64,000 bases of DNA from Mobula hypostoma. Its lineage: Eukaryota. Shown piece after piece: positions 10,101 through 13,100 of the stretch. The stretch covers positions 33,606,001 through 33,670,000 of the forward strand of contig NC_086097.1 in NCBI RefSeq assembly GCF_963921235.1, read 5' to 3'. Position 1 is the first letter of the stretch, and each line of letters opens with the position of its first letter. The position numbers and the translations under genes were made by a program. The notes beneath the pieces are model-generated. The model was not told the origin of the DNA. It saw only the letters and a program-made list of their open reading frames with translations, and made no database searches.

Positions 10101-13100
10101 GGGGGTGGCCTTGCCCCCTCCCCAGAAATACACGTCACTGAACCGGCTGGTCACCACAGCAATGGATGGGTCGGCAGGGGCATTCAGTCTGCATGGGAAC
10201 AAAGAAAAACAATATACATGGCCTCCCCTCCAATCACCTACCCTCCCTGACCTTATCCATTCCTGATCTAACCCATCCCTGAACCACCAGCTGGCTCCTC
10301 CCTCACTCCTGATCCCATCCCTCTCTGATCACTGACTCAAACCATCTAACCTTCCCTGACCCAATCACCCACAACCCCAACCCAAACCACACTGACCTCT
10401 TGATGACCCAGCCCCTTCCTGACTCCCGACTCATTCCCCCGAAGTGTCAGCACCCTTGGGTGGGGGGGGGTGAGATGTGACCCACCTTGTTTTCCGGGCA
10501 GGAGCATTGAGCTGAGTGACTCTGTCCTCCATCAGCCTGGAACAGAATCAGATATAATAAACCGTCTCATGGTAGCAATGCTGGATCAGGGTGAGGGAAA
10601 GGGGAAGGGAAGGGAGGAGGTGAGGGGAGGGGGGAGAAAGAGAAAGGGTAAATGAAGCAGGAGGGTGAGAGAAAGGAAGGGGATAAGATTAAAGAGTGGG
10701 GCTGTGGTGGTAGGTGGGAGAGGCATGATGAGAGGTGGGGAGTAGGCACAGAGTCAGCACACAGTTTCTGTAGGAGGGGTAGTAGGGAAGGAGAGGATGA
10801 GGAGAGGGAGTCCAAAGGCACTAAGGGAGGGAGGGAGGAAGGGTGCAGGGAGTGGGAAGAATGGAGGAAACAAGTGTGAGGGGAAGGGAGAAGGGGAAAA
10901 GGGAGGGTTGGGGACAGAAGAGAGGGGAATTTCAGGGGGAATTATGGAGTGAAGAGTGTGTGGTGTAGGAGGACTACTGGTGGGCAGAATGGCGGGGCGG
11001 GGAAGTGTGAGGGAGTGCTGATGGTGGGAGGGAAGCGTCTGTGCAGAGGTGAGGGAAGTCATGCTCTGTGGGTGTTGATGACAGGTTGGAGAGGGGAAAG
11101 GGGTCCCGTGGGGGTAAGTGTGTAGGGGGAATATAGTGCAGAGCATTGGGGAGTCAGTGCAATGGTGAGGGGAACTCACGCTCTCCGGGTGCTGATGACA
11201 GGTTCGGGGAGGGGAGGGGGAACAGGGGGACGATTGTGTCAGAGTCCAGGGGAACTCACGTTCTCCGGGTGCTGATAGGTTCGGGGGGGGGGGGGATTGT
11301 GTAAGAGTCCAGGGGAACTCACATTCTCCAGGTGCTGATGACAGGTTCGGGGAGGGGGGGGGCCATTGTGTAAGAGTCCAGGGGAACTCACGTTCTCCGG
11401 GTGCTGATGACAGGTTCGGGGGGAGGGGGGGCGATTGTGTAAGAGTCCAGGGGAACTCACGTTCTCCGGGTGCTGATGACAGGTTCGGGGGGGGGGGGTG
11501 CGATTGTGTAAGAGTCCATGCAGTGGTGAGGGGAACTCACGCTCTCTGGTTGCTGATGACAGGTTCGGGGGGGGGGGGCATTGTGTAAGAGTCCAGGGGA
11601 ACTCACGTTCTCCGGATGCTGATGACAGGTTCGGGGGGGGGGGGCGCGATTGTGTAAGAGTCCAGGGGAACTCACGTTCTCCGGATGCTGATGACAGGTT
11701 CGGGGGGGGGGGGCGATTGTGTAAGAGTCCATGCAGTGGTGAGGGGAACTCACGTTCTCCGGGTGCTGATGACGGGTTCGGGCGGGGGGGGGGGGGGGGG
11801 CGATTGTGTAAGAGTCCATGCAGTTGTGAGGGGAACTCACGTTCTCCGGGTGCTGATAGGTTCGGGGGGGGGGGGGCGATTGTGTAAGAGTCCAGGGGAA
11901 CTCACGTTCTCCGGGTGCTGATGACAGGTTCGGGGGGGGGGGCGATTGTGTAAGAGTCCATGCAGTGGTGAGGGGAACTCACGTGCTCCGGGTGCTGATG
12001 ACGGGTTCGGGCGGGGGGGGGGGGCGATTGTGTAAGAGTCCAGGGGAACTCACGTTCTCCAGGTGCTGATGACAGGTTCGGGGGGGGGGGCGATTATGTA
12101 AGAGTCCAGGAGAACTCACATTCTCCGGGTGCTGATGACAGGTTCGGGGGGGGGGGCGATTGTGTAAGAGTCCATGCAGTGGTGAGGGGAACTCACGTTC
12201 TCCGGGTGCTGATGACGGGTTCGGGCGGGGGGGGGCGATTGTGTAAGAGTCCAGGGGAACTCACGTTCTCCGGGTGCTGATGACAGGTTCGGGGGGGGGG
12301 GCGCAATTGTGTAAGAGTCCATGCAGTGGTGAGGGGAACCCACGCTCTCCAGGTGCTGACGACAGGTTTGGGGGGGGGGCGATTGTGTAAGAGTCCATGC
12401 AGTGGTGAGGGGAACTCACGCTCTCCAGGTGCTGATGACAGGTTCGGGGGGGGGGGGGTTGCGATTGTATAAGAGTCCATGCAGTGGTGAGGGGAACTCA
12501 CGTTCTCCGGGTGCTGATGACAGGTCGGCTCAGGATCTCCTCAGCCGTTGGCCTCTTGTCGGGGTCCTGGAAAACAGGCAGGTTACTGTCACCATGCCAT
12601 TAGCACAGGCAATGGCAGGTTAATAAACAAGTGCAACAGGATATCAGGTCAGCTTGGAACCACGCGGTTATCTGTCTGTGTGCACTTCTAGGGTAAAATC
12701 AGAACTGTGGTTTTTGGGGTCGGTGGGGCAGGGGGGTGGTGGAGCAACACCAGGTGAAGATCGGTTAAAAGGCAGAGACCAGGAATTCATTAGATCAATT
12801 CCATCTGGCAGAGGAATGTAAAACAAGCAAGGACTGGGAGCGACTTAGAATTCAGCAAAGGATGGATTAGGAAAGGAAAGGGGAAGACATGTGAGTAAAC
12901 TTGCACAGAACATTAAACCACCCTGTAAATTTAAGAAACACACATCAAAGTTGCTGGTGAACGCAGCAGGCCAGGCAGCATCTCTAGGAAGAGGTACAGT
13001 CGACGTTTCAGGCCGAGACCCTTCGTCAGGACTTCACTGGGTCTCGCCAATATATAGAAGGCCACATCGGGAGCACCGGACACAGTATATCACCCCAGCC

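What the first reader, a model, noticed from the sequence alone, without database searches (positions are those of the whole stretch)
11160..12525. Minisatellite made from the NEK9 exon 8 splice junction: 18 extra tandem 5' splice donors at the end of the kinase domain
Seen: the last ~24 nt of exon 8 plus its donor (cctgtcatcagcacccggagaac|GTGAGTtcccc) recur 19 times. The first copy is the real exon end. Seventeen others keep GTGAGT and one has GTGGGT. Reading through the true donor gives ACG TGA, so extending exon 8 to any downstream donor, or retaining the intron, ends the protein at ~301 aa (...ISTRRT*): kinase domain only. Established: the NEK9 RCC1 domain is autoinhibitory, and premature stops trigger NMD. 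Inference: this array could tune NEK9 dosage by competing for U1 snRNP, or yield a kinase-only isoform, in a copy-number-dependent way.
Basis: partly seen in the sequence, partly recalled or inferred. Interest (0 to 1): 0.8.

Follow-up and report, generated by a model that had tools for sequence, protein, structure and literature searches.

The report
Repeated splice donors in ray NEK9 intron
In a ray's NEK9 kinase gene the end of exon 8 with its splice signal is copied 18 more times at the start of the next intron; the one assembled transcript uses the first signal, so the copies are likely silent, as in a few known human genes.

Summary
On the minus strand, 19 tandem copies (63-87 nt apart) repeat the last 24 nt of NEK9 exon 8 plus its donor. 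Eighteen read GTGAGT and one reads GTGGGT; shuffles give 0 copies. A decayed 20th copy follows. The gene is NEK9: the exons match the annotated Nek9 of Mobula hypostoma, and ISTRRT ends at residue 301. Reading past the first donor gives ACG TGA.

The functional reading is not supported. One spliced transcript contig (depth 178) joins the first donor (12502) directly to exon 9 (10536) and skips the whole array. The three annotated isoforms do not differ at this junction. The donor hexamer is no better conserved than the rest of the unit (1/102 versus 30/810 changes, p=0.24). A three-unit higher-order repeat points to growth by unequal exchange.

This kind is already described: minisatellites whose first monomer spans an exon-intron boundary, in human F7, PDGF, LAMIN B2, CBS and 6-16 (PMC1557585). 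There the most upstream donor wins.

Verdict: a new member of a known kind, most likely neutral. Minor use of later donors could not be tested. This scan noted the same kind before on other DNA.

The parts
12502..12566 (-). NEK9 coding exon 8 (65 nt, residues 280-301, ...[21 protein letters not shown] + first two bases of T301)
   Evidence: tblastn of P0001 gives 100% identity at 12566..12501. The transcript contig of run X8 has joints at 12565|15662 and 10535|12501. Sequence read.
12496..12501 (-). Authentic 5' splice site GTGAGT (context AAC|GTGAGT). The in-frame stop TGA at 12500-12498 lies inside it.
   Evidence: The joint skips 1965 nt with GT..AG ends on the gene strand. AACGTGAGT read.
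11151..12525 (-). Minisatellite of 19 units (donor-to-donor spacing 63-87 nt). Each unit holds 24 exon-derived nt, a donor, about 23 fixed intron nt (plus 11 nt in 9 long units) and a C-run. Donor G positions: 12501, 12419, 12343, 12264, 12196, 12119, 12053, 11982, 11905, 11840, 11753, 11675, 11606, 11540, 11460, 11391, 11322, 11259, 11179.
   Evidence: The unit matches only this locus in the 3.48-Gb own genome.
11632..12289 (-). Three-unit higher-order repeat, three times over (units 4-6, 7-9, 10-12). It is marked by GCCCG at the end of the first unit's C-run and AACCCG at the start of the next unit.
   Evidence: Unit alignment. The TRF period of 214 has the best score, 1750.
11026..11087 (-). 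Decayed 20th copy. It is 47 of 63 aligned columns identical to the long unit and reads GCATGACT where the others have GCGTGAGT.
   Evidence: sequence.
10537..11050 (-). Unique, pyrimidine-rich remainder of intron 8 (78% C+T on the gene strand), ending in the acceptor AG at 10538-10537. Intron 8 as a whole is 10537-12501 (1965 nt), and the array makes up 1351 nt of it.
   Evidence: joint.
10486..10536 (-). NEK9 coding exon 9 (51 nt, residues 302-318, [17 protein letters not shown])
   Evidence: tblastn 100% identity. Joints at 10535|12501 and 10188|10486 in the X8 contig.

Best explanation
This is a locus-specific intronic minisatellite that grew from a tandem duplication of the NEK9 exon 8/intron 8 boundary, and its 18 extra donors are likely silent pseudo-sites removed with the intron.

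Shown:
- The array is real and its first unit is the true exon end.
- The assembled transcript splices the first donor to exon 9 across the whole array.

Inferred:
- The array expanded by unequal exchange or replication slippage, seen in the 3-unit higher-order repeat and perhaps helped by the C/G homopolymer run in each unit.
- The spliceosome picks the first donor because it is the most upstream one next to the defined 65-nt exon. This is the 5'-to-3' 'oriented scanning' or exon-definition behaviour shown experimentally for human F7 intron 7.
- The array itself has no selected function.
- Were the first donor lost, the second would likely take over. That would give a stop after residue 301 and likely nonsense-mediated decay, so the copies offer no rescue.
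For: Array and its origin:
- 19 of 19 pattern matches lie head to tail on the gene strand; shuffles give 0.
- The unit is found nowhere else in the own genome; all 6 matches lie in this locus.

Gene identity:
- Pkinase and RCC1 exons are present.
- Exons 6-10 are 100% identical to XP_062902148.1, Nek9 of Mobula hypostoma.

Splicing:
- In run X8 one 2557-nt contig at depth 178 carries four GT..AG joints. One of them runs from 12502 to 10536 and skips 1965 nt.
- Intron contigs of the same run have depths of about 1-5.
- No unspliced retrocopy of exons 7-10 exists in the genome; 17 candidates were scored and only 3 exon-wise hits at the locus were found. The contig is therefore RNA.
- Annotated isoforms X1-X3 are identical across the exon 8/9 junction.

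No sign of selection on the copies:
- Donor hexamer: 1 change in 102 positions. Rest of the unit: 30 in 810. Fisher p=0.24 (units 2-18).
- The old edge copy has lost its GT.
- No distinctive RNA fold around the first or later donors; z-scores run from -1.33 to +0.20 for the 4 stretches folded.
- No Rfam family in 10000-13000.

Growth by block duplication:
- Units 4-6, 7-9 and 10-12 share diagnostic variants, and TRF reports a period of 214.

Precedent (PMC1557585; abstract, introduction, results section 6 and discussion read):
- In F7 only the most upstream of 5-9 identical donors is used, although all are functional.
- In PDGF (81 bp x 16-18) and LAMIN B2 (100 bp x 10-15), the cases nearest in unit size and copy number, only the authentic donor is used.
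Against: - The transcript evidence is one assembled contig from one run. The other three runs laid gave no NEK9 exon contig.
- Assembled contigs drop rare variants, so use of downstream donors in a few percent of transcripts, or in other tissues, would not have been seen.
- In two known analogues (6-16 and CBS) the first two pseudo-sites are used as well (PMC1557585, introduction).
- 11 of 18 downstream donors have the same 9-mer as the real one, and 4 are identical to it over 35 nt. Nothing in the sites themselves forbids their use.
- The first three or four would still give exons under 300 nt.
- Neutrality is an argument from lack of signal in a young, homogenised array with few substitutions. 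The conservation test has little power.
- Copy-number polymorphism and presence in related species could not be examined.
Confidence: 0.8

Rival explanations
1. Dosage tuning. A fraction of NEK9 pre-mRNA would be spliced from the second, third or later donors. This would give transcripts with a stop after residue 301 that are degraded, so array length would set NEK9 output.
For: The donors are intact: 17 of 18 read GTGAGT and 11 of 18 match the real 9-mer. The TGA follows the exon end at once. In the human 6-16 and CBS genes the first two pseudo-sites are used constitutively (PMC1557585, introduction). Contigs cannot exclude minor isoforms (the tool's own caution).
Against: The only transcript contig uses the first donor. 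No annotated isoform differs at this junction. The analogues with units of 81-100 bp use only the authentic donor, and in F7 the pseudo-sites do not compete even when strengthened (PMC1557585). The donor hexamer shows no extra conservation.
Confidence: 0.12
2. Kinase-only protein isoform. Transcripts that run on past the first donor would be translated into a 301-residue NEK9 kinase domain free of the RCC1 brake.
For: The frame does end at residue 301, just after the kinase domain. Deleting the RCC1 domain gives a hyperactive kinase (PMC2018689, passages read).
Against: Such a transcript has many exon junctions downstream of the stop and is expected to be degraded (established rule for nonsense-mediated decay; my own knowledge). 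The same review says that mutants lacking the coiled-coil have significantly reduced activity (PMC2018689). No such contig or annotated isoform was seen for this species. The short 'Nek9-like' models of other sharks sit on contigs of 54-56 kb and look like truncated gene models.
Confidence: 0.02
3. Micro-exon cassettes. Each unit would also work as an acceptor, so 12-nt in-frame pieces could be spliced in and add four residues per unit between the kinase and RCC1 domains.
For: All 18 of 18 unit-to-unit intervals carry a branch-like YTNAY, a C-run and CAG with no AG in between. The distance from branch A to AG is 30-47 nt. The 12-mer between that CAG and the next donor keeps the frame, e.g. TTRRT.
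Against: The transcript contig has no such insert, and the annotated proteins read ISTRRT directly followed by LMEDRV. Mini-introns between neighbouring units would be only 51-75 nt. Micro-exons of 12 nt usually need dedicated enhancers (my own knowledge).
Confidence: 0.02
4. Assembly artefact. The array, or its length, would be produced by the assembler and not be present in the animal.
For: The C/G homopolymer runs and the tandem structure are hard to assemble. The copy number was not checked against reads here. The best DNA holders may be the very sample that was assembled.
Against: The units differ by many private substitutions, two length forms and a three-unit higher-order pattern, which stutter would not make. 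Contigs from four runs of four other samples of the same organism lie on 11568-12009 at 95% identity or more, though at low depth (tables 1-2). Runs X1-X4 hold 0.77-0.81 of the sampled words of the 8-kb stretch.
Confidence: 0.03

Closest known systems
Human F7 intron 7 VNTR (37 bp, 5-9 copies; Borensztajn et al. 2006, PMC1557585: abstract, introduction, results section 6, discussion read)
   Same: The first monomer spans the exon-intron boundary, so the authentic donor is followed by identical pseudo-donors. Only the most upstream one is used in normal transcripts. Use of a later one retains intron sequence.
   Different: Here the unit is about twice as long (63-87 nt) and takes 24 exon nt against 4. 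There are 19 copies, the units have diverged, and the host is an elasmobranch. No mutational or minigene test exists. Polymorphism is unknown.
Human PDGF intron 4 (81 bp x 16-18) and LAMIN B2 (100 bp x 10-15) junction minisatellites, as listed in PMC1557585 (introduction; the original papers were not read)
   Same: These are the nearest in unit length and copy number, and only the authentic donor is reported to be used. That matches the transcript contig here.
   Different: Different genes and a different lineage. I know these cases only from the citing paper.
[quoted passage not shown]
   Same: A minisatellite provides repeated donors at an exon end.
   Different: In those genes the first two pseudo-sites are used constitutively. 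No such use was seen here, though it was not testable at low level. Here any such use meets an immediate stop.
Earlier notes of this scan on other DNA: junction-derived minisatellites in DCTN1, MRPS18C, GIPC1 and EMILIN1 of cartilaginous fishes, and in MTREX, LIG1 and MICALL2 of other animals
   Same: The same architecture, and the same outcome in the RNA at hand: the first donor is used.
   Different: Other genes and genomes. They are unchecked AI notes and I did not test them.

Membership tests
Minisatellite whose first monomer spans an exon-intron boundary (F7 IVS7 type) | Head-to-tail tandem array with a unit of minisatellite size (about 10-100 bp) | tested here: met
   TRF periods of 66-76 and 214 nt, about 17 copies. 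There are 19 donors spaced 63-87 nt apart.
Minisatellite whose first monomer spans an exon-intron boundary (F7 IVS7 type) | The first monomer contains the real exon end and the authentic donor | tested here: met
   Exon 8 ends at 12502 by protein match and by the transcript joint. The repeat starts 24 nt inside the exon.
Minisatellite whose first monomer spans an exon-intron boundary (F7 IVS7 type) | The donor sequence is repeated intact in the following intron | tested here: met
   Of 18 downstream copies, 17 read GTGAGT and 1 reads GTGGGT. 11 of 18 have the same 9-mer AAC|GTGAGT, and 4 are identical over 35 nt.
Minisatellite whose first monomer spans an exon-intron boundary (F7 IVS7 type) | Normal transcripts use the most upstream donor and the pseudo-sites stay silent | tested here: inconclusive
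   Met for the assembled, dominant form: one contig at depth 178 joins 12502 to 10536, and the annotated isoforms agree. Rare use cannot be judged from contigs.
Minisatellite whose first monomer spans an exon-intron boundary (F7 IVS7 type) | Copy number varies among individuals (VNTR) | not testable with these tools
NEK9 (Nercc1) kinase gene | N-terminal protein kinase domain followed by RCC1 repeats, and orthology to annotated Nek9 | tested here: met
   Pfam Pkinase on the exon 2 and exon 6 translations, and RCC1 on the translation of 8601-8809. The best hits are all named Nek9 or Nek9-like (8 of 9 hits carry a name). Exons 6-10 are 100% identical to XP_062902148.1.

The most novel reading that the evidence does not exclude
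Array length is a heritable dial on NEK9. A copy-number-dependent share of transcripts is diverted to donors 2-19 and destroyed, or gains 12-nt in-frame TTRR-type micro-exons between the kinase domain and the RCC1 brake. Individuals with different repeat numbers would then differ in NEK9 dose or linker length.
Probability: 0.04. Interest if true: 0.6.

Novelty: new member of a known kind. Interest (0 to 1): 0.27.

Why it matters
It is a clean natural test case for how a spliceosome chooses among identical 5' splice sites. Nineteen donors lie in a row, 12 of them with the same 9-mer, in an essential mitotic kinase gene of a cartilaginous fish. The available transcript picks the first, as the oriented-scanning model from human F7 predicts.

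That carries the behaviour beyond mammals, and this scan's earlier notes suggest such arrays recur in cartilaginous fishes. For annotation it is a warning: gene predictors may pick a wrong donor or report a truncated kinase-only model. It does not by itself reveal a new regulatory mechanism.

Tried and rejected
- RNA runs: no listed holder is on record as RNA. Four runs guessed to be RNA were laid. Only X8 gave NEK9 exon contigs; X9, X13 and X17 covered mainly the interspersed repeats.
- Parts of the array without cover in these runs say nothing.
- A second read-laying request was meant to check the array in DNA reads and in two other organisms, and to list all joints in a narrower stretch (X8, X1, X5, X10 on 10300-12840). 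Conservation in relatives, polymorphism and read-level copy number stay open.
- The own genome has no relatives in the genome search, so orthologous introns could not be compared.
- Dispersed repeat or transposon origin: rejected, because the unit matches only this locus.
- Structured RNA: rejected. There are no Rfam hits and the folds are no better than shuffles.
- Retrocopy as the source of the spliced contig: rejected.
- Selection on the donors: the conservation test was not significant.
- One odd X17 contig joins 11798 to 10783 with 6 other letters between (table 5c). The skipped part does not start at a donor. It was left unexplained, and is probably a join through C-rich low-complexity words.
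- A literature search with a badly formed term failed and was not re-sent. The needed paper had already been found.
- Numerical splice-site scores (MaxEnt, consensus value) were not computed, because no model was at hand and a matrix from memory would be unreliable. I state only that AAC|GTGAGT fits MAG|GURAGU at 8 of 9 positions.

Full report
**1. The observation**

The region was read on the gene (minus) strand. It shows coding sequence ending ...CCGGAGAAC followed by GTGAGT, and then the same motif again and again.

- A degenerate pattern for the last exon bases plus the donor matches 19 times, all on the minus strand between 11172 and 12516. None of 100 dinucleotide-preserving shuffles gave a match.
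- Eighteen copies read GTGAGT and one (12336-12358) reads GTGGGT.
- A second motif from the intron part of the unit recurs 18 times against 0.26 expected.
- Tandem Repeats Finder reports the array with periods of about 66-76 nt and a better-scoring period of 214 nt.
- Donor-to-donor spacing is 63-87 nt.

**2. The gene**

- Translated exons carry Pkinase and RCC1 domains.
- A search with the exon 2 peptide returned nine proteins. The eight that carry a name are all called Nek9 or Nek9-like and come from sharks and rays.
- The best hit is XP_062902148.1, Nek9 isoform X1 of Mobula hypostoma. Laid on the window by tblastn it gives twelve coding exons in order on the minus strand. Identity is 100% for exons 6 to 10.
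- Exon 8 is 12566..12502 (residues 280-301) and exon 9 is 10536..10486 (residues 302-318).
- ISTRRT ends at residue 301 of 1039.
- The intron is phase 2, so reading on gives ACG TGA. This immediate stop follows for any phase-2 intron that begins GTGAGT or GTAAGT, so it is not a peculiarity of this array.

**3. Anatomy of the array**

Each unit consists of four parts:

- 24 nt copied from the exon;
- the donor;
- about 23 fixed intron bases, with an extra 11 nt in 9 'long' units that is lacking in the 10 'short' ones;
- a C-run (longest run 5-17 in the 18 intervals).

Units 4-6, 7-9 and 10-12 share diagnostic variants in the same order. This three-unit higher-order repeat explains the 214-nt period. 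Such block structure is the mark of growth by unequal exchange.

Downstream of unit 19 lies a decayed further copy (about 11087-11026). It is 47 of 63 aligned columns identical to the unit, and the donor position reads CATGAC. Decay at the edge and homogeneity in the middle are what a turning-over array is expected to show.

The array takes 1351 of the 1965 nt of intron 8. The remaining 514 nt before the acceptor are 78% pyrimidine.

The unit occurs nowhere else in the 3.48-Gb genome. All six matches lie in this locus, so it is not a dispersed element.

**4. Are the copies under constraint?**

- Among units 2-18 the donor hexamer has 1 change in 102 positions, against 30 in 810 for the rest of the alignable unit (Fisher p=0.24). 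Unit 19 was left out because its intron part leaves the repeat; C-runs and indel columns were left out as well.
- The 9-mers are AAC|GTGAGT in 12 of 19 copies, AGC| in 4, AAT| in 2 and CAC| in 1.
- Four downstream copies are identical to the real site over 35 nt.
- The site fits the consensus MAG|GURAGU, as given in PMC1557585, at 8 of 9 positions. The misfit is C at -1.
- Folding the real site and three later units gave nothing beyond shuffled controls (z from -1.33 to +0.20).
- Rfam finds nothing.

Nothing in sequence or predicted structure sets the first donor apart, except its position next to the exon.

**5. What the RNA shows**

No run is on record as RNA. Four small runs of the same organism, guessed to be RNA, were laid on 9800-16400.

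- In X8 a single 2557-nt contig at depth 178 carries four joints with GT..AG ends on the gene strand: 16154|15773, 15662|12565, 12501|10535 (cut +1, i.e. 12502 joined to 10536, skipping 1965 nt) and 10486|10188.
- Intron contigs in the same run have depths of about 1-5.
- The genome holds no intron-less copy of exons 7-10. Seventeen candidates were scored and only three exon-wise hits at the locus were found. The contig therefore represents spliced RNA.
- The other three runs gave no NEK9 exon contig.
- The three annotated isoforms of the matching species differ only by 2 and 9 residues near the C-terminus. They are identical across the exon 8/9 junction, as are the Nek9 proteins of three other rays.

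The dominant form thus uses the first donor and removes the whole array. Contigs drop rare variants, so use of later donors at a low level is neither shown nor excluded.

**6. Comparison with what is known**

A literature search led to Borensztajn et al. 2006 (PMC1557585). I read the abstract, introduction, results section 6 and discussion. It describes exactly this class: minisatellites whose first monomer spans an exon-intron boundary, so that the donor is repeated in the intron.

| Human gene | Unit and copies | Donor use |
|---|---|---|
| F7 intron 7 | 37 bp x 5-9 | only the first |
| PDGF intron 4 | 81 bp x 16-18 | only the authentic |
| LAMIN B2 | 100 bp x 10-15 | only the authentic |
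| 6-16 | 25 pseudo-sites | the first two pseudo-sites as well |
| CBS intron 13 | 15-20 repeats | two pseudo-sites as well |

[quoted passage not shown] When upstream sites are inactivated, the next one is chosen, with increasing exon skipping. The authors call this 5'-to-3' oriented scanning.

The array here is closest to the PDGF and LAMIN B2 cases in unit size and copy number, and it behaves like them in the RNA available. This scan's own notes list eight earlier junction-derived minisatellites on other DNA, four of them in cartilaginous fishes, with the same outcome. I did not test those notes.

**7. The functional proposal**

- Deleting the NEK9 RCC1 domain does give a hyperactive kinase. 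The same review notes that mutants without the coiled-coil have significantly reduced activity (PMC2018689, passages read).
- A transcript with a stop after exon 8 and many junctions downstream is expected to be degraded (established rule; my own knowledge).
- A stable, active kinase-only protein is therefore unlikely.
- Dosage tuning through minor use of donors 2-4 remains possible but has no support.

All 18 unit-to-unit intervals also look like acceptors: YTNAY, a C-run, then CAG with no AG in between. They bound 12-nt pieces that keep the frame. No RNA or annotation shows such inserts.

**8. Verdict**

The thing is a splice-junction-derived intronic minisatellite in a ray NEK9 gene. It is a new member of a known kind, most likely neutral, with the first donor in use. 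Interest is modest. It is a good natural substrate for testing 5' splice site choice outside mammals, and a trap for gene prediction, but not a new mechanism.

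Noticed in passing
window 12845-13560, also 1688-1966, 6044-6346, 24107-24427, 30297-30638, 31052-31435: A very abundant interspersed element recurs in both orientations. Its shared peptide-like frame reads ...[32 protein letters not shown]... in the ORF list. In the runs laid, contigs on 12894-13114 reach summed depths of 88,558 to 395,487. 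Reverse-transcriptase-like frames lie beside it (e.g. 2-733, 22532-23005).
   Followed up: no
window 2733-3350: A second tandem array (periods 116 and 156 nt, 2-4 copies, 70-78% matches). It sits in a C-rich stretch whose plus-strand frame reads as a proline-rich repeat. It lies between NEK9 exons and is unrelated to the junction array.
   Followed up: no
proteins P0002, P0003, P0004: Three short 'Nek9-like' models of other sharks (328, 169 and 313 aa) are kinase-only. P0002 (Heptranchias perlo) ends ...PIISRRRE, exactly one residue past the homologous exon 8 end. That is a model running into the same phase-2 intron and its immediate stop. P0002 and P0003 lie on contigs of 54-56 kb and look like truncated gene models, not real isoforms.
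   Followed up: partly
window 12502-12503 (split codon) and units 2, 3, 14, 19: The residue encoded across the exon 8/9 junction differs among rays: T in the Mobula record, V in Hypanus, A in Hemitrygon, P in Pristis. Four repeat units, the oldest full one (19) among them, and the decayed copy carry AGC in place of AAC before the donor. With the next exon's G that would read Ala, as in Hemitrygon. It may preserve an older state of the exon end.
   Followed up: no
alignment A1 columns 1009-1017 (C-terminal coiled-coil region; exons outside or at the far end of the window): The three annotated Nek9 isoforms of the matching species differ by 2 and 9 residues at one spot (…LSEVLELLSRVNMEQ…). This suggests alternative splice-site use there, not at exon 8.
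   Followed up: no
window 11798 joined to 10783 (run X17, table 5c): One contig at depth 59 joins the C-run of unit 10 to the pyrimidine-rich rest of the intron, with 6 other letters between. The skipped part does not begin at a donor. It may be a k-mer join through low complexity or a deletion allele.
   Followed up: no
scan notes: Four of the eight earlier junction-derived minisatellites listed by this scan are in cartilaginous fishes (DCTN1, MRPS18C, GIPC1, EMILIN1), and this one makes a fifth. Whether such arrays are truly enriched in these slowly evolving, repeat-rich genomes would need a systematic count.
   Followed up: no
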